A stretch of 64,000 bases of DNA from Candidatus Eiseniibacteriota bacterium. Lineage in GTDB: Bacteria > Eisenbacteria > RBG-16-71-46 > JABDJR01. Of this stretch, positions 1-26,687 are shown one piece after another. The translations under genes and the position numbers were made by a program. Within the stretch, counting starts at the first letter, position 1. The number at the start of each line of letters is the position of its first letter. The notes beneath the pieces were generated by a model that saw only the letters and a list, made by a program, of their open reading frames with translations, did no database searches and was not told the DNA's origin. The stretch lies in contig CAWANH010000028.1 in the NCBI GenBank assembly GCA_963783375.1, positions 1,120,001-1,184,000 on the forward strand. Reading direction: 5' to 3'.

Positions 1-1392
1 GATCTGGCCCGGGACGGGAAGGGCCGGCCCATTCCCCTCTACAAACCGCTTCGCCACGACGAGTGCAGCGCCTGCCACCGCGATCCCCACGAGAACCGGC
101 TCGGGCCCGCCTGCGGCAAATGCCACGTCACCGAGGGGTTCAAGAAAACGGCCGCGGGGGGGTTCGATCACGGGGTCACCCGGTACCCCCTGGCCGGCCG
201 CCACGTCGGGCTGGAGTGCGCGAAGTGCCACGATCCGGTGAAGGCGTGGGGCAAGCGCCCGGCCTTTGCCCGCTGCGACGATTGCCACCGGGATCCCCAC
301 GCCGGTGAGACCCGCCTGGCCGGAAAACCCGCGGATTGCGCGGCCTGCCACGCCGTCTCGGGGTTCCGCCCCTCGACCTACACCGTGGACCGCCATCGCG
401 AAGCGGCCTACCCCCTGGAGGGAAAGCATCGCGGCGTGGAGTGTCGCGGGTGCCATCTCCTCAAGCCGGCGAAGGTGCCGGCGGAGAAGCTGGGAGCGGC
501 GGGGATCCTCATGCGCCCCCGCTTCGCCACCTGCCGCGACTGCCACGCCGAAGCGCACGACGGCCAGCTCACCGGCCGCGCCGACGGCGGCGCCTGCCGG
601 ACCTGCCACGCTCCCTCGGGCTGGAAACCGAGCCTCTTCACCGTATCGGACCACGCGACGCTCAAACTTGCGTTGGAAGGCAGGCACGAGGAGATCGCCT
701 GCGCCGCGTGCCACGGCCCCCGCCGCCGCGATCTTCCGGTTCTTCCCGGCCCCGACACCACCGGGACCGCCGGCGTGATGTTGGCGTTGGGGAGCGGCGC
801 GTGCGTGACCTGCCACGTCGACCCCCATTTCGGCCGCTATGATCGCCCCGCCGAGGCCTCGCCGCCGGGCGGTTGCCGCGCCTGCCATGCCGCCTCGACG
901 TTCCGCCCCGCGACCGTCGGCGTGGAAACCCACCGGGAGTATTCCTTCCCCCTGGAAGGGGCGCATCGCGCGGTGCCGTGCACCGGTTGCCACCGGGAAC
1001 TCATGCGGCCGCCCCTGTCCTCGACCTTGGTCGGCGCGGGGGTGAAGCTCGTCCCCCTCCGGTTCAACCAGCACCGAAGCGCCTGCCGGGATTGCCACGA
1101 CGGGCCCCACGGGACGCAGTTCGCGGTTAGGGCGGACAAGGGGGCCTGCGGGACTTGCCACGGGGTCGACGCCTTCGCTCCCGCGGACCACTTCGACCAT
1201 GACCGGGACACGGCGTTCGGCCTCCGAGGCGCCCACGCGAAGGTGGCCTGCGCCGAATGCCATCCCTCACGGAAAGACGCGGACGGAGTGGAGCGGATCC
1301 GCTACCGCCCTACTCCCACCGAGTGCGAGAGCTGTCACCGGGGCGGTCGGCCCGGGACGGGGTCCCGCCGGAACGGGGGGGGCGGATCATGA
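1..1392 (+). CDS. Multiheme c-type cytochrome, 5'-truncated by window edge (16 CxxCH visible)
   Basis: Frame is open from base 1 (DLARDGKG..CSACH..CGKCH..CAKCH) into ORF 238..1392, which has 13 more CxxCH; recurring H..(Y/F)PL.G.H...CxxCH modules; stop TGA overlaps next ATG (ATGA). Confidence 0.95.
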   Translation, partial: DLARDGKGRPIPLYKPLRHDECSACHRDPHENRLGPACGKCHVTEGFKKTAAGGFDHGVTRYPLAGRHVGLECAKCHDPVKAWGKRPAFARCDDCHRDPHAGETRLAGKPADCAACHAVSGFRPSTYTVDRHREAAYPLEGKHRGVECRGCHLLKPAKVPAEKLGAAGILMRPRFATCRDCHAEAHDGQLTGRADGGACRTCHAPSGWKPSLFTVSDHATLKLALEGRHEEIACAACHGPRRRDLPVLPGPDTTGTAGVMLALGSGACVTCHVDPHFGRYDRPAEASPPGGCRACHAASTFRPATVGVETHREYSFPLEGAHRAVPCTGCHRELMRPPLSSTLVGAGVKLVPLRFNQHRSACRDCHDGPHGTQFAVRADKGACGTCHGVDAFAPADHFDHDRDTAFGLRGAHAKVACAECHPSRKDADGVERIRYRPTPTECESCHRGGRPGTGSRRNGGGGS

Positions 1393-4300
1393 GAGGGTGG
1401 AACGGGTTCCTGGCTCGTCTGTGGTCCCGGCGTCCTGGTTGGCGGCTCATCCGCCCGGGGTTTGTGCTGGTCGGCGTGTTCATCGTCTTCGGGGGAGGGA
1501 TGATCTGGGATGCGGTCGGAGCGGGGGCGGACGATGACGAGCCCAAGTACCCGCACGGGTCGTTCCAGGCGGAGTGCAGCATGTGCCACTCCTCGGAGGG
1601 ATGGAAACCGGCACAGATCGGCAAGCAGTTCAAACACGAGAAATACGGGATGCCTCTCGACGGGGCGCACGCCGAGACGCCGTGCCTGTCCTGTCACCGG
1701 TCCCTGGAATTCGCGGACAGCGGCACGCAGTGCGCCGAGTGCCACCAGGACGTGCACAACAGCGAGTTGGGAACGGAGTGCGCGGATTGCCACACCACCC
1801 GGAGCTTCGGGGATCGATCCCGGATGGAGGACCTCCATCAGCTCACCCGGCTGCCCCTGACCGGCGCGCATGCCACGCTGGACTGCGCGGATTGCCACGT
1901 GTCGCAGGCGAAAGGGAAGGGGACCTTCGCCGGGGTGGCGGCGGAATGCGCGTCGTGCCACCTGGCCCGCTACGAGGCCGTGGAGGATCCTCCCCATGAG
2001 GCAGACCACTTCTCAACGGAATGCTCCCTCTGCCACGGCACGTCGAGCTGGAACGGCGGCGCCTTCGAGGCGGCCGGCCTGACGGAGTTCGATCACGGGG
2101 CGACGCTGTTTCCCCTGACCGGGGCGCACACCCGAACGGAGTGCATGACGTGCCATGGGGGTGGGGTATACCGGGGGTTGAGCACGGAGTGCGCAACCTG
2201 CCACCAGTCCGACTACGACGGGACCACGGACCCGGATCATCAGGCCGCCGGGTATCCCTTGGAGTGTGCGAATTGTCACGGCACTGAGAGCTGGTCGGGA
2301 GCGGACTTCAATCACGATGAGACCGGGTTCCCGCTCACCGGGGCTCATGTGGTCCAGCAGTGCCAGAGCTGTCACGGGGGTGGGGTGTACCAGGGGCTGG
2401 GCACGAAGTGCGCGACCTGCCACCAGACCGACTACAATGGGACGACCGAACCGGTGCATAGCGCGGCCGGGTTCCCGGTCACCTGCCAGGACTGCCACAA
2501 CACGACCAACTGGGACGGCGCGACGTTCGACCACAGCACCCAGACCCAGTTCCCCCTCACCGGCGCGCACGTCGCCCAGCAGTGCCAGAGCTGCCACGGG
2601 GGTGGGGTGTACCAGGGGCTGGGCACGGAGTGCGCAACGTGCCACCAGGCGGACTACGATGGGACGACCGAGCCGGTTCACAGCGCGGCCGGGTTCCCGG
2701 TGACCTGCCAGGACTGCCACAACACGACGAACTGGGACGGGGCGACGTTCGATCACGACAGCCAGACCCAGTTCCCGTTGACCGGGGCGCACATCACCCA
2801 GCAGTGCCAGAGCTGTCACGGGGGTGGGGTGTACCAGGGGCTGGGCACGGAGTGCGCAACGTGCCACCAGGCGGACTACGATGGGACGACCGAGCCGGTG
2901 CACAGCGCGGCCGGGTTCCCGGTGACGTGCCAGAACTGCCACAACACGACCAGCTGGGACGGGGCGGTTTTCGATCACGATAGCCAGACCCAGTTCCCGC
3001 TCACCGGCGCGCACGTCGCCCAGCAGTGCCAGAGCTGCCACGGGGGTGGGGTGTACCAGGGGCTGGGCACGGAGTGCGCAACCTGCCACCAGGCGGACTA
3101 CGATGGGACGACCGAGCCGGTTCACAGCGCGGCCGGGTTCCCGGTGACCTGCCAGGACTGCCACAACACGACGAACTGGGACGGGGCGACGTTCGATCAC
3201 GACAGCCAGACCCAGTTCCCGTTGACCGGGGCGCACATCACCCAGCAGTGCCAGAGCTGTCACGGGGGTGGGGTGTACCAGGGGCTGGGCACGGAGTGCG
3301 CAACCTGCCACCAGGCGGACTACGATGGGACGACCGAGCCGGTGCACAGCGCGGCCGGGTTCCCGGTGACGTGCCAGAACTGCCACAACACGACCAGCTG
3401 GGACGGGGCGACGTTCGATCACGACAGCCAGACCCAGTTCCCGTTCACCGGGGCGCACATCGCCCAGCAGTGCCAGAGCTGCCACGGGGGTGGGGTGTAC
3501 CAGGGGCTGGGCACGGAGTGCGCAACCTGCCACCAGGCGGACTACGATGGGACGACCGAGCCGGTTCACAGCGCGGCCGGGTTCCCGGTGACCTGCCAGG
3601 ACTGCCACAACACGACGAACTGGGACGGGGCGACGTTCGATCACGACAGCCAGACCCAGTTCCCCCTCACCGGGGCGCATATCGCGGCTCAATGCCAGAG
3701 CTGCCACGGCGGCGGGGTGTACCAGGGGCTGGGCACGGAGTGCGCGACCTGCCACCAGGCCGACTACGACGGGACCACGGATCCACCTCACGACCCGGCC
3801 GGGTTCCCGGTGACCTGCCAGGACTGCCACAACACGACGAACTGGGACGGGGCGACGTTCGATCACGACAGCCAGACCCAGTTCCCGTTGACCGGGGCGC
3901 ACATCACCCAGCAGTGCCAGAGCTGTCACGGGGGTGGGGTGTACCAGGGGCTGGGCACGGAGTGCGCAACGTGCCACCAGGCGGACTACGATGGGACGAC
4001 CGAGCCGGTGCACAGCGCGGCCGGGTTCCCGGTGACGTGCCAGAACTGCCACAACACGACCAGCTGGGACGGGGCGGTTTTCGATCACGATAGCCAGACC
4101 CAGTTCCCGCTCACCGGCGCGCACGTCGCCCAGCAGTGCCAGAGCTGCCACGGGGGTGGGGTGTACCAGGGGCTGGGCACGGAGTGCGCAACCTGCCACC
4201 AGGCGGACTACGATGGGACGACCGAGCCGGTTCACAGCGCGGCCGGGTTCCCGGTGACCTGCCAGGACTGCCACAACACGACGAACTGGGACGGGGCGAC

Positions 4301-7193
4301 GTTCGATCACGACAGCCAGACCCAGTTCCCCCTCACCGGGGCGCATATCGCGGCTCAATGCCAGAGCTGCCACGGCGGCGGGGTGTACCAGGGGCTGGGC
4401 ACGGAGTGCGCAACCTGCCACCAGACCGACTACGACGGGACGACCGACCCGCCCCACGATCCGGCCGGGTTCCCGGTGACCTGCCAGGACTGCCACAACA
4501 CGACGAACTGGGACGGGGCGACGTTCGACCACGACACCCAGACCCAGTTCCCCCTCACCGGGGCGCACGTCGCCCAGCAGTGCCAGAGCTGCCACGGGGG
4601 TGGGGTGTACCAGGGGCTGGGCACGGAGTGCGCGACCTGCCACCAGTCCGACTACGACGGGACGACCGAGCCGGTTCACAGCGCGGCCGGGTTCCCGGTG
4701 ACCTGCCAGGACTGCCACAACACCACGACCTGGGACGGGGCGACGTTCGACCACAGCACCCAGACCCAGTTCCCCCTCACCGGCGCGCATGTCGCCCAGC
4801 AGTGCCAGAGCTGCCACGGGGGTGGGGTGTACCAGGGGCTGGGCACGGAGTGCGCAACCTGCCACCAGACCGACTACGACGGGACGACCGAACCGGTGCA
4901 CAGCGCGGCCGGGTTCCCGGTGACCTGCCAGGACTGTCACAACACCTCGGCCTGGGACGGCGCGACGTTCGACCACGATACCCAGACCCAGTTCCCGTTG
5001 ACCGGGGCGCACATCACCCAGCAGTGCCAGAGCTGTCACGGGGGTGGGGTGTACCAGGGGCTGAGCACCGAGTGCGCGACCTGCCACCAGACCGACTACG
5101 ACGGGACCACGGACCCGCCCCACGACCCGGCCGGGTTCCCGGTGACCTGCCAGGACTGCCACAACACGACGAACTGGGACGGGGCGACGTTCGACCACAG
5201 CACCCAGACCCAGTTCCCCCTCACCGGGGCGCACATCACCCAGCAGTGCCAGAGCTGCCACGGGGGTGGGGTGTACCAGGGGCTGGGCACCGAGTGCGCG
5301 ACCTGCCACCAGTCCGACTACGACGGGACCACGGACCCGCCTCACGACCCGGCCGGGTTCCCGGTGACCTGCCAGACTGCCACAACACGACGAACTGGGA
5401 CGGGGCGGACTTCGATCACGATACCCAGACCCAGTTCCCGTTGACCGGGGCGCACATCACCCAGCAGTGCCAGAGCTGCCACGGCGGCGGGGTGTACCAG
5501 GGGCTGGGCACGGAGTGCGCGACCTGCCACCAGACCGACTACGACGGGACGACCGACCCGGCCCACGATCCGGCTGGGTTCCCGGTGACCTGCCAGTCGT
5601 GCCACAACACGACGAACTGGGACGGGGCGACGTTCGACCACAGCACCCAGACCCAGTTCCCCCTCACCGGCGCGCACGTCGCCCAGCAGTGCCAGAGCTG
5701 CCACGGGGGTGGGGTGTACCAGGGGCTGGGCACGGAGTGCGCGACCTGCCACCAGTCCGACTACGACGGGACGACCGAGCCGGTTCACAGCGCGGCCGGG
5801 TTCCCGGTGACCTGTCAGGACTGCCACAACACGACGACCTGGGACGGGGCGGTTTTCGATCACGACAGCCAGACCCAGTTCCCGCTGACCGGGGCGCACA
5901 TCACCCAGCAGTGCCAGAGCTGCCACGGCGGCGGGGTGTACCAGGGGCTGGGCACGGAGTGCGCGACCTGCCACCAGGCCGACTACGACGGGACCACGGA
6001 CCCGGCCCACGACCCGGCCGGGTTCCCGGTGACCTGCCAGGACTGCCACAACACGACGAACTGGGACGGCGCGACGTTCGACCACAGCACCCAGACCCAG
6101 TTCCCGCTCACCGGGGCGCATCATCGCGGTCCAATGCCTGAGCTGCCACGGCGGCGGGGTGTACCAGGGGCTGGGCACCGAGTGCGCAACCTGCCACCAG
6201 ACCGACTACGACGGGACCACCGACCCGGTGCACAGCGCGGCCGGGTTCCCGGTGACCTGCCAGGACTGCCACAACACGACGACCTGGGACGGCGCGACGT
6301 TCGACCACAGCACCCAGACCCAGTTCCCGCTCACCGGGGCGCATCTCGCGGTCCAATGTCTGAGTTGCCACGGCGGCGGGGTGTACCAGGGGCTGGGCAC
6401 CGAGTGCGCAACCTGCCACCAGGCCGACTACGACGGGACGACCGAACCGGTCCACAGCGCGGCCGGGTTCCCGGTGACCTGCCAGAACTGCCACAACACC
6501 ACGACCTGGGACGGCGCGACGTTCGACCACAGCACCCAGACCCAGTTCCCGCTCACCGGGGCGCATCTCGCGGTCCAATGTCTGAGCTGCCACGGCGGCG
6601 GGGTGTACCAGGGGCTGGGCACCGAGTGCGCGACCTGCCACCAGACCGACTACAATGGGACGACCGAACCGGTGCATAGCGCGGCCGGGTTCCCGGTGAC
6701 CTGCCAGAACTGTCACAACACCTCGGCCTGGGACGGCGCGACGTTCGACCACAGCACCCAGACCCAGTTCCCCCTCACCGGCGCGCACGTCGCCCAGCAG
6801 TGCCAGAGTTGCCACGGGGGTGGGGTGTACCAGGGGCTGGGCACGGAGTGCGCGACCTGCCACCAGTCCGACTACGACGGGACGACCGAGCCGGTTCACA
6901 GCGCGGCCGGGTTCCCGGTCACCTGCCAGAACTGTCACAACACGACGACCTGGGACGGGGCCACCTTCGACCATGACGCATCGTTCTTCCCGATCTACTC
7001 GGGGAGTCATAGTGGACGATGGAGCGATTGCACCGACTGTCACACCAACAACACGAATTACACCGATTTCACCTGCCTGAGCTGCCATCCGCACGATGAC
7101 AAATCCAAGACCGATGGGGACCATCGGGGCAGATCCGGATACCAATACGACAGCCAGGCTTGTTATTCATGCCATCCCCGGGGGAGCCACTAA
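1389..7193 (+). CDS. Giant tandem-repeat multiheme cytochrome c (~1934 aa, ~76 CxxCH); -1 indel at ~5375 and +1 indel at ~6122 as assembled
   Basis: ATG 1389 overlaps upstream stop; N-terminal hydrophobic segment (FVLVGVFIVFGGG); 7 N-terminal CxxCH + 22 repeats x 3 + 3 C-terminal. Pieces lie in ORFs 1257..5444, 4136..6679 and 6159..7193. Span is 5805 nt = 1935 codons, so the frame is restored net. Confidence 0.9.
2088..6974 (+). repeat. Intragenic tandem array of 22 units, ~222 bp (74 aa) each
   Basis: Consensus FDH(S/D)(T/S)QTQFPLTGAHxxQQCQSCHGGGVYQGLGTECATCHQxDYDGTT(EPVHSA/DPPHDP)AGFPVTCQ(D/N)CHNTTxWDGAT; the GGGVY codons recur at 2376, 2598, 2820 ... 6816, plus a diverged first unit at ~2157. 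Confidence 0.97.
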
Positions 7194-8821
7194 TGACTCG
7201 GTGGGCGAGCGCGGCGCTTACCGTGATCGCGACCGTGCTGGCCTGCCTGGGGGCGCCGTCCCCCGCCCCGGCTGCCGTCGACAACACCTCCATGGCCGAT
7301 AGCAGTGCCCACGTCACCTACGTCACCGGCGACTTGATCTATGTGGACGCGGGACGGCAGAGCGGCCTGGGGGAGGGTCTGGAGCTACAGGTCGAGCGGG
7401 ATGGGAAGGCGGTGGCCACGCTCAAGGTGGAGCACCTCTCCTCCCATCAGGCCTCGTGCTCCGTGATCGGAGATCCGGTCGAGGTGAAGATCGGGGATGT
7501 CGTCCGGTTCCGACCGGTTCCTGCCAAGACGACCGGCGAGAATCCGTCGCCGGCGGCGAGCCGGGCAAATCCCGGCCGGACCGGCTCGGTATCGACGATG
7601 CAGGCGCTCCGGGCCCTGGGTTTCCGGGGACGGGTCGGGGTCCGGTACCTCACCCTGATGGATCAGACCGGGTCCGGCGCCGGCTTCTCCCAGCCCGCGC
7701 TGGACCTCCGGGTGTCCGGGACCCGGATCAACGGGAGCGACCTGGACCTCTTGGTCGATGCCCGGGCGCGCCGTACCTACCGGACGGACGCGAACGGGGG
7801 GCAATCCAACGACGGACGGACCCGCTTCTATCGGCTGAGCCTCTCCCGCCGGGCCGAGGGCTCACCCCTGCGGCTGTCCCTGGGTCGGCAGGTATCCCCC
7901 GACCTGGCCTCGGTGAGCCTCTTCGACGGCCTCCTGGGGGAATACGCAAGACGATCCGTGGCCTTCGGGGTCTTCACCGGTACCCAACCCGATCCCAAGA
8001 CCTACGGCGCCTCGAGCGAAGTGTTCGAATATGGGGGCTATGCCCGGGTGCAGGGCGCGCAGGCCGGAGTGGGCCGTTGGGCGCTCACCGGAGGAGCCAT
8101 CCAATCGCTGGTGAGGGGAGCGGTGAACCGGGACTATCTCTTCCTACGCGGCCGGTACATGAACCGCCGGATGTTCGGGTACCTGACCCAGGAGATCGAC
8201 ATCAATCGCGGCTGGAAGGCGAAGGCCGGCGAACCCCTGCTGACCCCGACCAGCACCTACCTGAACCTCCGCTATCAGCCGGCACCGGCATTGAGTTTCA
8301 CCGCCGGCTTCGACAACCGCCGGAACGTCCGGCTCTATCGGGACCGCGATACGCCGGAGACGGTGTTCGACGACAGCTATCGCCGAGGGCTCCGGGGCGG
8401 GGTGAGCGTGCGCTTTCTGGACCGGTTCCGGGTTGGGGGAGACGCCGGGATCCGCGGCGGGGGCGGGAGCGGCGATTCGAAATCCTTCACCTTCACCACC
8501 CGCATCTCCCGGCTGTCTCCGCTGGCCGTCGATCTGAGCACCCGGCACACGCGCTACACCGGCCCACTCGCCGACGGCTGGCTGCACACGGTTCGGGCGG
8601 GCGGTTCGATCGGCAGGCGGAACCGACTGGAACTGCACGCGGGGGGGAAGCGGGAAGACCGGTTCACCGGACCCGAGACCTCGGCGCAGACGACGTGGCT
8701 CGGTGCCGACCTGGACCTCGGCATCGTGACCGGCTGGTACCTCCTTCTCTCGGGAGAGTCCACCCGGGGAGACGTCGAAAAGAACGACCAGGTCTACACC
8801 AGCTTGTCCTACCGGTTCTGA
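7193..8821 (+). CDS. Outer-membrane beta-barrel protein with N-terminal FlgT_C-like small beta domain; putative porin partner of the cytochromes
   Basis: ATG 7193 overlaps cytochrome TAA (TAATG); signal peptide; IYVDAG..GL..G..L.V.R...VA.L.V domain; amphipathic strands; ends SLSYRF (terminal Phe BAM signal). Confidence 0.8.
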   Translation: MTRWASAALTVIATVLACLGAPSPAPAAVDNTSMADSSAHVTYVTGDLIYVDAGRQSGLGEGLELQVERDGKAVATLKVEHLSSHQASCSVIGDPVEVKIGDVVRFRPVPAKTTGENPSPAASRANPGRTGSVSTMQALRALGFRGRVGVRYLTLMDQTGSGAGFSQPALDLRVSGTRINGSDLDLLVDARARRTYRTDANGGQSNDGRTRFYRLSLSRRAEGSPLRLSLGRQVSPDLASVSLFDGLLGEYARRSVAFGVFTGTQPDPKTYGASSEVFEYGGYARVQGAQAGVGRWALTGGAIQSLVRGAVNRDYLFLRGRYMNRRMFGYLTQEIDINRGWKAKAGEPLLTPTSTYLNLRYQPAPALSFTAGFDNRRNVRLYRDRDTPETVFDDSYRRGLRGGVSVRFLDRFRVGGDAGIRGGGGSGDSKSFTFTTRISRLSPLAVDLSTRHTRYTGPLADGWLHTVRAGGSIGRRNRLELHAGGKREDRFTGPETSAQTTWLGADLDLGIVTGWYLLLSGESTRGDVEKNDQVYTSLSYRF

Positions 8822-17750: not shown

Positions 17751-17998
17751 GAAGTTCACCCGGGTGAACTCGCGCGGTTGTGGGTTCGGAGCTGGGCCCG
17801 AAGTTCACCCGGAGGCGCAAACAGCGCCGCGAGTTCTTTATTGCGAACATGTTGCACTCGGGTGCAAGTGGGCCCGCGGCCGATGGATACCCGGGTACAC
17901 CTTCCGCCGTCGCGCGCAGGTGGCCGTCCCGGAATTCACCCGGGTGAACACGCGCGGTTGTGGGTACGGAACCCATCCCGAAGTTCACCCGGGTGAAC
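17751..17998. repeat. Cluster of palindromic REP-like elements (core TTCACCCGGGTGAA) within two ~62-bp direct repeats
   Basis: Palindromes at 17753-17770, 17935-17948, 17983-17998; half copy at 17800-17812; 17751-17812 resembles 17931-17992; lies between convergent genes. Confidence 0.8.
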
Positions 17999-25106: not shown

Positions 25107-25241
25107 GCTGGGTCCCTTTCCTTGGAAAAGACGGGCGGAAGGGTTTGGATAATCGGGTTGGATTCTACGGAACCGGCGCCGGCCGCGAAAGCGGACAACT
25201 GGAGTTCGAGATTCGGTATAGGCGACAAATTCACTACGAAA

Positions 25242-25270
25242 GCGGTCGGGTTCCGGCGGAATCCGACCGC
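25242..25270. promoter_or_regulatory. Near-perfect inverted repeat in divergent intergenic region
   Basis: GCGGTCGGGTTCCG-G-CGGAATCCGACCGC next to an AT-rich tract (25280-25325); function unknown. Confidence 0.4.
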
Positions 25271-25448
25271 AAGGGTACTGTGAATTTTGACCCAAATCGA
25301 ATAGATAAAACAGTTATCCATGAACGGGATGCAGGATGGGAGCCCGGGCCAACTAGAATTACCGGAGCAACTTGGGTTCGCAACGAGCTCCAGCCCCCGG
25401 GTCTGATCGGGGACGGGTGAGGGGGGTTCGTCACCAGGAGGTTCCGGA

Positions 25449-26594
25449 ATGGCCCGCCGCTCCCGCCTTGTCCTCTCCGTGTTCGCCTTGTCGCTCGTCT
25501 TCTGCGCCGCATCCGCCCTTGCCGATGACGGGCCGGGCGCGTTCTCCACCTCTTCCATTCACTCCGGGGGGCGCATGCGCTCCACCCACGGGGTTTTCTC
25601 CATCGCCGGCGGCGCCTATCCCGACGCCGAGCCCCGCTATCACAACGGGAGCGAGCTGGTGTGTGGGGACTGCCACGTCATGCACGCTTCCCAGACCCAT
25701 CCCTACGATCCGGCGGGCGCGAGGCCGGGGGAGGAGGTCCCCTACGCCGGAGGGCCCAACCCGAAGCTCCTGAAGGTCCCCGACCCTCTCGATCTCTGTC
25801 TCAACTGCCACGACGGCCGCACCTTCGCCCCCGACGTTCTCGGGGCGGACGTGAACGGCCTCGTCCAGCGCTCGGCGGGACACTTCGACGAGCCGGAGCT
25901 GGCCAACCCCCGCGGACACGACCTGGGCCGGGGCCTCCCCGACGCCGAGGGATTCGGCCTCTGCACGCGGTGCCACTTCTCGAGCGGCGAGGACGCCAAG
26001 GTCACCTGCATCGACTGCCACAACCCGCACGGGAACGGGGTGGCCCGGAACCTCCAGTGGGCGAGCGATCCCACGTCCACCCCGGACCTGGGGCTCTTCG
26101 TGAACCCGGGGGCGAGCGGGCTGGCCCGCTACGAGGCTTCGAACGTTTCCTTCGGGACCCTGAACACCGACCAGCTCCGCGAGGTCACCAACATCTGCCT
26201 CGACTGCCACCACATCTTCTCGGGGGAATCCTACATCGACCCCGACGGCAACGGGTTCCACAACCGCCATCCCACCTACGACAGCGAGCGCGGGTCGATC
26301 AACTCCATCAGCCAGGGGGACGCCGACGGGCGGACCAATTCCCCCCACTGGCTGGGAGGGACCGGGTCGGGGTTCATGGGGACGCCGCGGCTCCGCTTCG
26401 TGGCCTCCGGGGCCACCGACTTCGCCTCCGGGACGGTCGTGGACGCGGACAACGACGGGGTGTTCTGTTTGAGCTGCCACACCGCCCATGGAAGCGATCA
26501 GGCCTTCGCCCTGACCTGGACGCTCCAGGACGGATACGGCGCCCCCGGCTGCGACCAGTGTCACTACGTGGCCCAGGTGGACGCGGCCCCCTAG
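25449..26594 (+). CDS. Secreted 7-heme cytochrome c, OmcS-like motif architecture
   Basis: AGGAGG RBS; signal peptide ending ALA; CGDCH, CLNCH, CTRCH, CIDCH, CLDCH, CLSCH, CDQCH; YHNGSELVCGDCHVMHAS, CxxCHNPHG, RHP, VFCLSCHTAHGS. Confidence 0.9.
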   Translation: MARRSRLVLSVFALSLVFCAASALADDGPGAFSTSSIHSGGRMRSTHGVFSIAGGAYPDAEPRYHNGSELVCGDCHVMHASQTHPYDPAGARPGEEVPYAGGPNPKLLKVPDPLDLCLNCHDGRTFAPDVLGADVNGLVQRSAGHFDEPELANPRGHDLGRGLPDAEGFGLCTRCHFSSGEDAKVTCIDCHNPHGNGVARNLQWASDPTSTPDLGLFVNPGASGLARYEASNVSFGTLNTDQLREVTNICLDCHHIFSGESYIDPDGNGFHNRHPTYDSERGSINSISQGDADGRTNSPHWLGGTGSGFMGTPRLRFVASGATDFASGTVVDADNDGVFCLSCHTAHGSDQAFALTWTLQDGYGAPGCDQCHYVAQVDAAP

Positions 26595-26629
26595 CCTTAC
26601 CGGAAGCCGAAGCACCTCCGGGCAAGGAC

Positions 26630-26660
26630 GAGCGCCCCGCGGGAGATCCGCGGGGCGCTC
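26630..26660. terminator. 13-bp GC hairpin between convergent genes (putative bidirectional terminator)
   Basis: GAGCGCCCCGCGG-gagat-CCGCGGGGCGCTC; no strong U tract. Confidence 0.55.
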
Positions 26661-26687
26661 TCATGCCTTGCCCGATGGACGGACCGG

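What the first reader, a model, noticed from the sequence alone, without database searches (positions are those of the whole stretch)
25449..26594. OmcS-like nanowire cytochrome with a seventh heme and the polymerisation His
Seen: YHNGSELVCGDCHVMHAS ... PKLL..CLNCH ... GHDL ... CIDCHNPHG ... CLDCH..RHP ... VFCLSCHTAHGS ... terminal CDQCH. Known (recalled): Geobacter OmcS runs FHSGGVAECEGCHTMHNS, PMLL..CLNCH, GHNI, CSSCHDPHG, CANCH..RHP, VNCLSCHRAHAS, CNKCH, and its His16 ligates a heme of the neighbouring subunit. The spacing to that His is identical here. Differences are an extra CTRCH and a ~40-aa N-terminal extension. Inference: a filament-forming cytochrome in an apparently non-Geobacter lineage, which may complement the conduit 17 kb away.
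Basis: partly seen in the sequence, partly recalled or inferred. Interest (0 to 1): 0.78.

Follow-up and report, generated by a model that had tools for sequence, protein, structure and literature searches.

The report
Seven-heme OmcS relative with side heme
This gene encodes a seven-heme relative of OmcS, the six-heme protein that stacks into electron-conducting wires in Geobacter; its extra heme likely sits off the wire axis as an electron entry or exit point, and it likely serves as an accessory subunit of a wire built from a six-heme relative encoded elsewhere in the genome.

Summary
Observation confirmed: window 25449-26594(+) is a stand-alone 381-aa gene with seven CxxCH motifs. It is a remote OmcS homologue (family profile vs PDB 6EF8 E=1.9e-6; model Z=12.2, rmsd 3.6 over 248 residues). 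His79 is in register with OmcS His16. The extra motif is a short insert that marks one branch (187 of 313 tree rows) nested among hexaheme OmcS-like proteins of many phyla. A new histidine, His255, is present in 176 of 178 heptahemes, 0 of 129 hexahemes and 0 of 9 members that lost the insert, so it is the likely ligand of a branch heme. Wire formation is untested, and OmcS homology alone does not predict it. The link to the conduit 17 kb away has no support. The likelier partner is a hexaheme OmcS-like gene in an osc-like cluster on contig C29; 30 of 73 related loci lie beside such genes. OmcS homologues outside Geobacter are already in print; my searches found no heptaheme form. The scan noted this family before on other DNA (e1-9870291). 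New variant of a known kind.

The parts
25449..26594 (+). Heptaheme OmcS-fold c-type cytochrome gene (P0001, 381 aa), alone between a divergent thiolase-like gene and a convergent transketolase-like gene
25436..25441 (+). Shine-Dalgarno-like AGGAGG, 7 nt before the ATG
   Evidence: sequence; conserved in L003
25449..25523 (+). Likely Sec signal peptide (residues 1-25, ending A-L-A); Cys19 is not conserved, so not a lipoprotein signal
   Evidence: judged by eye; helix 3-24; no signal predictor was run
25524..25637 (+). N-terminal extension (residues 26-63) with conserved His38 (25560-25562); absent from hexaheme paralogues and from basal heptahemes
   Evidence: His38 in 109 of 110; outside the structural match to OmcS (model 63-375)
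25638..25685 (+). OmcS N-terminal register Y64-H65-x6-C72xxC75H76-xx-H79; heme 1 motif at 25662-25676; His79 (25683-25685) equals OmcS His16
   Evidence: His79 in 170 of 178 heptahemes
25797..25811 (+). Core heme 2 motif C117-H121
25917..25919 (+). His157 (GH motif), invariant, inferred distal ligand of a core heme
   Evidence: 68 of 68 and 43 of 43
25962..25976 (+). Extra (seventh) heme motif C172-H176 in a short insert that is a gap in hexaheme paralogues
   Evidence: 110 of 110 in A1
26007..26030 (+). Core heme 3 motif C187-H191 with invariant His194
26196..26213 (+). Core heme 4 motif C250-H254 followed by His255 (26211-26213), likely distal ligand of the seventh heme
   Evidence: 176 of 178 heptahemes, 0 of 129 hexahemes, 0 of 9 that lost the insert
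26268..26270 (+). His274 (RHP motif), invariant, inferred distal ligand of a core heme
26466..26489 (+). Core heme 5 motif C340-H344 with invariant His347; the equivalent heme takes the inter-subunit ligand in OmcS
   Evidence: PMC6584659
26550..26564 (+). Core heme 6 motif C368-H372
26619..26674 (.). G+C-rich hairpin (13-bp and 9-bp arms) between convergent genes, possible terminator; the T-tail scan did not call it

Best explanation
P0001 is a seven-CxxCH cytochrome c with a predicted OmcS fold whose seventh heme likely branches off the six-heme stack, held by His176 and likely His255, and which likely docks head-to-tail through His79 as an accessory subunit of a wire made mainly from the hexaheme OmcS-like protein on contig C29. 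Shown: sequence anatomy, OmcS homology, co-occurrence of His255 with the insert, gene context. Predicted: the fold. Inferred, step by step: (1) export by Sec and heme attachment by the genome's PF01578 proteins; (2) six core hemes stack in motif order as in OmcS, served by His65, 157, 194, 274, 347 and an incoming ligand; (3) because all six core motifs and ligands are kept, the inserted heme cannot join the unbranched chain and sits on the side next to core heme 4, whose proximal His254 neighbours His255; (4) His79 binds heme 5 of another OmcS-type subunit; (5) electrons from the C29 route (NapC/NrfH-like quinol oxidase, c554-like, MtrA-like plus barrel, 42-heme protein) run along the wire and leave or enter at the side heme.
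For: Fold: 6EF8 is the top hit by profile (E=1.9e-6) and by structure (Z=12.2, rmsd 3.6, 248 aligned; next hit Z=5.3). A1 vs hexaheme alignment A3: probability 100%, E=1.2e-62; A3 vs OmcS E=1.4e-24 and Z=14.2. Ligand count: five non-motif His are invariant in 68 heptahemes and 43 hexahemes, His79 is in 64 and 41 of them, and His255 is the addition that tracks the insert best (176/178, 0/129, 0/9), including basal heptahemes with no His38 extension. In 7 independent pairs His255 went with the insert in a mean 4.9 and against it in 0. Couplings L171-A205 (z 9.2) and D115-R161 (z 8.2) exceed the shuffle maximum of 7.3 and pack the insert on the core. Accessory role: 44 of 50 genomes searched also hold a lower-scoring OmcS-like gene and 46 of 50 have one copy of this branch; 6 of 11 positive genomes among 41 (own plus relatives) have only the lower-scoring type; 30 of 73 loci lie within 10 kb of C29-cluster non-heme genes. 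OmcS has an unbranched stack in motif order (PMC6584659).
Against: No coordinates were available, so no His-Fe geometry was checked. The independent-pair test is not significant (p=0.0625). The 9 members that lost the insert also mostly lost His79 (7 of 9), His84 (9 of 9) and the His38 pattern (8 of 9), so general decay could explain the loss of His255, and His79 or His38 could be the ligand instead. Two heptahemes lack His255 and eight lack His79. Foldseek gives only E=9.5e-3, TM 0.31. The stretch between the last two motifs is 28 residues here against about 70 in OmcS, which may alter the interface. Five of 50 genomes show no second OmcS-like gene (incomplete assemblies). In this genome the gene is unlinked to the cluster. 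OmcT, OmcJ and GSU2501 are not known to form wires (PMC12977616). Support for the branch is moderate (FastTree 0.88; SH-aLRT 82).
Confidence: 0.45

Rival explanations
1. Homopolymer wire: P0001 stacks on itself through His79 to give a 'leaky' OmcS-type filament with one exposed heme in every subunit, as OmcZ has.
For: His79 and all core ligands are kept; the gene stands alone with its own ribosome-binding site and hairpin; 5 of 50 genomes show this branch only and 4 of 50 have two copies; basal members lack the extension that might block the interface.
Against: It nearly always travels with hexaheme paralogues (44 of 50); a 38-residue extension precedes the residue that is the mature N-terminus of OmcS; no head-tail coupling rose above noise (best z 5.6 against shuffle maximum 7.3, a low-power test).
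Confidence: 0.2
2. End piece: P0001 terminates a hexaheme wire. Either His79 binds the last subunit's heme 5 while His38 on the extension folds back onto its own heme 5, or the seventh heme occupies His79 and closes the head end.
For: His38 is conserved on an otherwise variable arm (109 of 110; 157 of 178) with no core heme left to serve; mostly single copy; His79 is lost in 7 of 9 members that lost the insert. An earlier scan note reads it this way (e1-9870291, a lead only).
Against: Other surplus His exist (84, 271, 300), so His38 need not be a heme ligand; basal heptahemes lack it. Another cluster protein looks like a better tail partner: the second hexaheme keeps a CxxCHxxH first motif in 19 of 19 complete modules (21 hits) and is fused behind an OmcS-like domain in 5 loci. 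Many genomes with the hexaheme lack this branch.
Confidence: 0.15
3. Non-polymerising carrier: a monomeric or small-oligomer periplasmic or surface cytochrome that uses the OmcS scaffold to shuttle electrons or help assembly, with His79 or His38 used within the chain.
For: Three of four G. sulfurreducens OmcS-like hexahemes have no known wire (PMC12977616); OscC is listed as periplasmic (PMC13194489); 8 of 178 heptahemes lack His79; no secretion gene is adjacent here.
Against: His79 is kept at 170 of 178, close to the hexaheme level of 127 of 129, which is hard to explain without a heme to bind; frequent position at the edge of the osc-like cluster.
Confidence: 0.18
4. The seventh CxxCH carries no heme (a disulfide or metal site).
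For: No direct evidence of heme loading exists.
Against: Both Cys and the His are invariant in 110 of 110 and a candidate distal His appears and disappears with them.
Confidence: 0.02

Closest known systems
OmcS (GSU2504) of Geobacter sulfurreducens, PDB 6EF8/6NEF
   Same: Fold (Z=12.2, rmsd 3.6 over 248 residues, 22% identity), order and context of six CxxCH motifs, N-terminal register including the His16-equivalent
   Different: Seventh CxxCH insert, His255, 38-residue extension with His38, much shorter stretch between the last two motifs; polymerisation untested; gene not in an osc operon
OmcT, OmcJ and GSU2501 (OscC), hexaheme OmcS paralogues
   Same: OmcS-like paralogue accompanying another OmcS-type gene; function unassigned (PMC12977616; PMC13194489)
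OmcZ nanowire (PDB 8D9M), branched 'leaky' filament
   Same: Works-like analogy only: one heme off the axial chain, solvent exposed (PMC9473688, passages)
   Different: Reported as unrelated to OmcS in fold and without inter-subunit His ligation; not among the fold-search rows, which does not exclude it
osc (omcS companion) cluster, known to me second-hand through PMC12977616 and PMC13194489
   Same: The C29 cluster has an OmcS-like hexaheme, a second hexaheme, an NHL propeller, barrel-like proteins, two lipoproteins with weak CsgG/GNA1162-like hits and large multihemes
   Different: Homology to the Geobacter Osc proteins was not tested; the heptaheme gene is elsewhere in this genome

Membership tests
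OmcS-fold multiheme cytochromes (OmcS/OmcT/OmcJ/OscC-like) | Sequence homology to OmcS | tested here: met
   Profile A1 top PDB hit 6EF8, E=1.9e-6; via hexaheme profile A3, E=1.2e-62 and 1.4e-24; single-sequence search missed it
OmcS-fold multiheme cytochromes (OmcS/OmcT/OmcJ/OscC-like) | OmcS fold | tested here: met
   AlphaFold2 model pLDDT 86.5; Z=12.2, rmsd 3.6, 248 aligned; Foldseek weaker, TM 0.31
OmcS-fold multiheme cytochromes (OmcS/OmcT/OmcJ/OscC-like) | Six core CxxCH motifs in OmcS order with six conserved non-motif His | tested here: met
Canonical hexaheme OmcS | Exactly six heme motifs | tested here: not met
   Seven motifs in 110 of 110 family members
Canonical hexaheme OmcS | Mature chain starts a few residues before the first ligand His | tested here: not met
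   About 38 extra residues; median 68 vs 33 residues to the first motif
OmcS-type nanowire subunit | His16-equivalent present | tested here: met
   His79 in register, 170 of 178; its role as the inter-subunit ligand is recalled
OmcS-type nanowire subunit | Polymerises head-to-tail with an inter-subunit His-heme bond | not testable with these tools
   Needs a heme-loaded filament structure
OmcS-type nanowire subunit | Gene lies in an omcS/osc-type cluster | tested here: inconclusive
   Not in this genome (cluster is on C29); yes within 10 kb in 30 of 73 related loci, 22 of 38 long ones
osc cluster (for the C29 locus) | Orthology to Geobacter OscC-J | not tested
   No Geobacter Osc sequences were obtained; the primary paper is not held
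OmcZ-type branched nanowire | OmcZ fold | tested here: inconclusive
   Not listed among 3 rows with Z>=2; an unlisted family is not excluded
OmcZ-type branched nanowire | Off-axis solvent-exposed heme | not testable with these tools
   Inferred from ligand accounting only; no coordinates are returned

The most novel reading that the evidence does not exclude
A widespread candidate-phylum branch of the OmcS family has grafted a branch heme onto the insulated OmcS scaffold, giving the first OmcS-type wire subunit with a built-in lateral port, and its wires are ordered hetero-polymers of specialised paralogues (shaft hexaheme, heptaheme port or tip, and a tail-docking second hexaheme).
Probability: 0.3. 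Interest if true: 0.78.

Novelty: new variant of a known kind. Interest (0 to 1): 0.52.

Why it matters
How charge enters and leaves insulated OmcS wires, and how they are anchored or ended, is named as open in the papers I read (PMC6584659; PMC12307469; PMC13712944). Known wires are sorted into insulated (OmcS, OmcE) and leaky (OmcZ) types of separate origin. A natural OmcS-fold protein with one added heme and a named candidate ligand (His255) gives a direct test of whether the insulated scaffold can carry a side port, and a template for engineering one. It also points to extracellular electron transfer in Eisenbacteria, Zixibacteria and other uncultured groups. The importance is tempered because OmcS homologues beyond Geobacter are already reported, heme-number variation in the OmcS family has been noted in general terms, the scan has met this branch before, and polymerisation is untested.

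Tried and rejected
Two-copy complex prediction with four hemes (residues 26-381, alignment A1): no verdict, score 0.00 against a mark of 0.42, controls not folded; not evidence either way. Only one job was available, so the pair with the C29 hexaheme was not tried. Sequencing runs: no RNA holder listed; no evidence on expression. Coevolution on 176 heptahemes: shuffled columns reached z 7.3, so the hints that I37 lies near L251 or R295 (z 4.5-4.9) and all head-tail pairs are within noise; the extension's position is unresolved. His38 as the sole ligand of the seventh heme: disfavoured because basal heptahemes lack it. The His four residues after core motif 4 as a core ligand replaced by His255: disfavoured because 35 of 129 hexahemes have neither. 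Link to the conduit at window 1-8821: no homologue in 73 loci (flank limit 10 kb). Regulation: no sigma-70 site, no Rfam match upstream; one FNR-like site with one mismatch at 25287-25300 from a recalled consensus is not conserved letter for letter in L003 and is not relied on. Single-sequence PDB search found only an OmcE-type chain (9YUQ, E=0.012) and cytochrome c4. The second-look structural search 'pdb_via' did not run. Longer or shorter homologue searches were not run. Literature: searches listed no paper describing a heptaheme OmcS or an OmcS end subunit; one search found no 'CXXCHH' text, so the cytochrome c3 precedent for that motif is recalled; one search gave no source for 'His16'. 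Shen et al. 2025 and Wang et al. 2019 are not held; they, and the closed supplements of bioRxiv 2025.05.29.656830, may already show this variant.

Full report
Observation. The ORF at 25449-26594(+) encodes 381 residues with seven CxxCH motifs; 20,000 shuffles never gave more than two. It has a ribosome-binding site, a likely Sec signal peptide (judged by eye) and a downstream hairpin, and lies between a divergent thiolase-like and a convergent transketolase-like gene. G+C is like its surroundings. Pfam and NCBIfam give only generic paired-CXXCH hits.

Family. The homologue search returned 298 proteins, 120 listed; I aligned the query with 109 of them (A1), leaving out 11, mostly shorter records. 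All 110 have seven motifs. Named relatives are Ca. Eisenbacteria, Zixibacteria, Armatimonadota, Planctomycetota, Gemmatimonadota, Ignavibacteria and others; the closest named ones are Eisenbacteria, which is my inference for the host. The profile finds 762 representatives at E<=0.001, 53 at 1e-30.

Relation to OmcS. A single-sequence search missed OmcS, but the profile ranks 6EF8 first (E=1.9e-6) with Y64-H79 aligned to OmcS F1-H16. The AlphaFold2 model (pLDDT 86.5) matches 6EF8 at Z=12.2, rmsd 3.6 over 248 residues, model 63-375 on chain 1-407, next hit Z=5.3. Foldseek is weaker (E=9.5e-3, TM 0.31). An alignment of 82 hexaheme relatives bridges the gap: E=1.2e-62 to A1, E=1.4e-24 to OmcS. The first refutation test, a fold not superposable on OmcS, is therefore passed. 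The second, blockage by the extension, could not be tested because no coordinates are returned.

The seventh heme. Among 68 heptahemes and 43 hexahemes from genome loci, His65, 157, 194, 274 and 347 are invariant and His79 nearly so: six ligands for six core hemes. The extra motif lies in a gap of the hexahemes. Of 363 distinct sequences, 322 passed a length filter and 319 were classed; after setting aside one truncated record and two independent insertions, His255 is in 176 of 178 heptahemes, 0 of 129 hexahemes and 0 of 9 members that lost the insert. One locus-search pattern contained this His, but A1, gathered without motifs, has it in 110 of 110. Trees built without the insert, His255 and the extension put heptahemes and the nine losses in one branch (187 of 313 rows, FastTree 0.88; 39 of a 64-row subsample, SH-aLRT 82). 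His255 follows the insert in a mean 4.9 of 7 independent pairs and never opposes it, p=0.0625. Against this, the nine also mostly lost His79, His84 and His38, so decay is an alternative. His38 (157 of 178) is missing in basal heptahemes, so it is not required. OmcS has an unbranched stack in motif order (PMC6584659, parts 1-2 of 3 read), so a seventh heme added with all six core sites intact most likely branches, beside core heme 4. Two couplings above the shuffle maximum pack the insert on the core. That the second His of CxxCHH can ligate another heme is recalled from cytochrome c3 and comes from no call.

Context. The genome holds 41 frames with two or more CxxCH, three PF01578 matches and one further OmcS-like gene, a hexaheme on C29 (E=5e-26; Z=14.2), inside a cluster with an NHL propeller, lipoproteins, barrel-like proteins, a 42-heme protein and a NapC-like protein. 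Of 73 related loci, 30 have homologues of that cluster's NHL or lipoprotein genes within 10 kb (22 of 38 long loci); none has homologues of the window's own conduit, though the flanks are too short to see one 17 kb away. I searched 50 of the 73 source genomes, favouring those with no cluster nearby: 44 hold a lower-scoring OmcS-like match (motif number not checked in each), five none, one only a contig-edge fragment; four have two copies of the heptaheme branch. Among 41 genomes (own plus relatives), 11 match, five with the heptaheme type and six with only the lower-scoring type. This pattern fits an optional partner of a hexaheme system better than a main wire subunit.

Mechanism. Most likely (0.45): exported, heme-loaded, docked through His79 on an OmcS-type subunit, with the His255-held side heme as an exchange point. 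Rivals: homopolymer with a branch in every subunit (0.2), non-polymerising carrier (0.18), end piece (0.15), no heme at the insert (0.02). The end-piece reading was given by an earlier scan note on other DNA (e1-9870291); I confirmed its single-copy and accompaniment claims but found a competing tail partner in the cluster's second hexaheme, which is fused behind an OmcS-like domain in five loci.

What is known. OmcS homologues outside Geobacter are reported (PMC10954620, passages; PMC12954529, passages; PMC8478452, passages). Only OmcS among four G. sulfurreducens paralogues is known to form a wire (PMC12977616, passages). The osc operon is known to me second-hand (PMC13194489, passages). OmcZ has a branched, exposed heme and is of separate origin (PMC9473688, passages). 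A preprint notes that OmcS-family heme number varies and that gains come as inserted peptides (10.1101/2025.05.29.656830, passages; supplements closed). Searches listed no description of a heptaheme OmcS; two key papers are not held. PMC12307469, PMC13712944 and PMC12806980 were read as passages. Three other scan notes describe OmcS-like clusters in other genomes.

Verdict. A real, conserved OmcS-fold variant with a probable branch heme and a named candidate ligand; member of the OmcS fold family, not a canonical hexaheme OmcS, and not shown to be a nanowire. New variant of a known kind; interest 0.52.

Noticed in passing
G000:C29:1459097-1475702 (L001, L002), minus strand: A full candidate electron-export cluster: NapC/NrfH-like hexaheme, c554-like tetraheme, NHL propeller, OmcS-like hexaheme (Z=14.2 to 6EF8), second hexaheme, barrel-like protein apparently split by a frameshift near 1468.9 kb, two lipoproteins, 42-heme protein, DmsE/MtrA-like decaheme, barrel-like protein, hexaheme lipoprotein.
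   Followed up: partly
L010:1405-3537, L011:1404-3518, L012:486-2789, L013:1061-3211, L016:835-2988; P0261: Twelve-motif proteins fuse an OmcS-like hexaheme to the cluster's second hexaheme (55% identity to the C29 copy), whose first motif is CxxCHxxH in 19 of 19 complete modules; a hint that it docks on the tail of an OmcS-type subunit as adaptor or base.
   Followed up: partly
window 1203-7193: Giant repeat multiheme cytochrome: 222-bp unit x 21.8 at 2151-6977, read in three frames with 51, 9 and 15 CxxCH, so it is frameshifted or mis-assembled; followed by a barrel-like ORF at 7100-8821 with no Pfam or NCBIfam hit.
   Followed up: partly
P0211, P0260: Two hexaheme-branch proteins carry a CxxCH insert at the same place without His255 and fall outside the heptaheme branch, suggesting a second, independent gain.
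   Followed up: partly
L046:9788-11197, P0126, P0131-P0133, P0141, P0142, P0148, P0165: Nine members inside the heptaheme branch lost the insert (5 changes on the tree, 3 forced by starred branches); most also lost His79, so they may be non-docking derivatives.
   Followed up: partly
window 25227-25287: Nested inverted repeats upstream of the gene (14-bp arms 25242-25255/25257-25270; 8-bp arms 25227-25234/25280-25287); changes in L003 break them and Rfam has no match.
   Followed up: partly
window 17755-17997: A short palindromic word recurs three times in the gap between the thioredoxin-like gene and the peptidase gene (17755, 17935, 17984), REP-like.
   Followed up: no
G000 C25:2684-3889, C28:826255-827232, C29:1230188-1231417: UshA-like tetraheme proteins whose stop-to-stop frames begin mid-domain, two of them near-identical; possibly selenoproteins read through TGA or assembly duplicates.
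   Followed up: no
genomes G001, G003: Two of three other genomes of the same genus (93% and 98% complete) have no match to the family at E<=1e-10, so the system is patchy within the genus.
   Followed up: no
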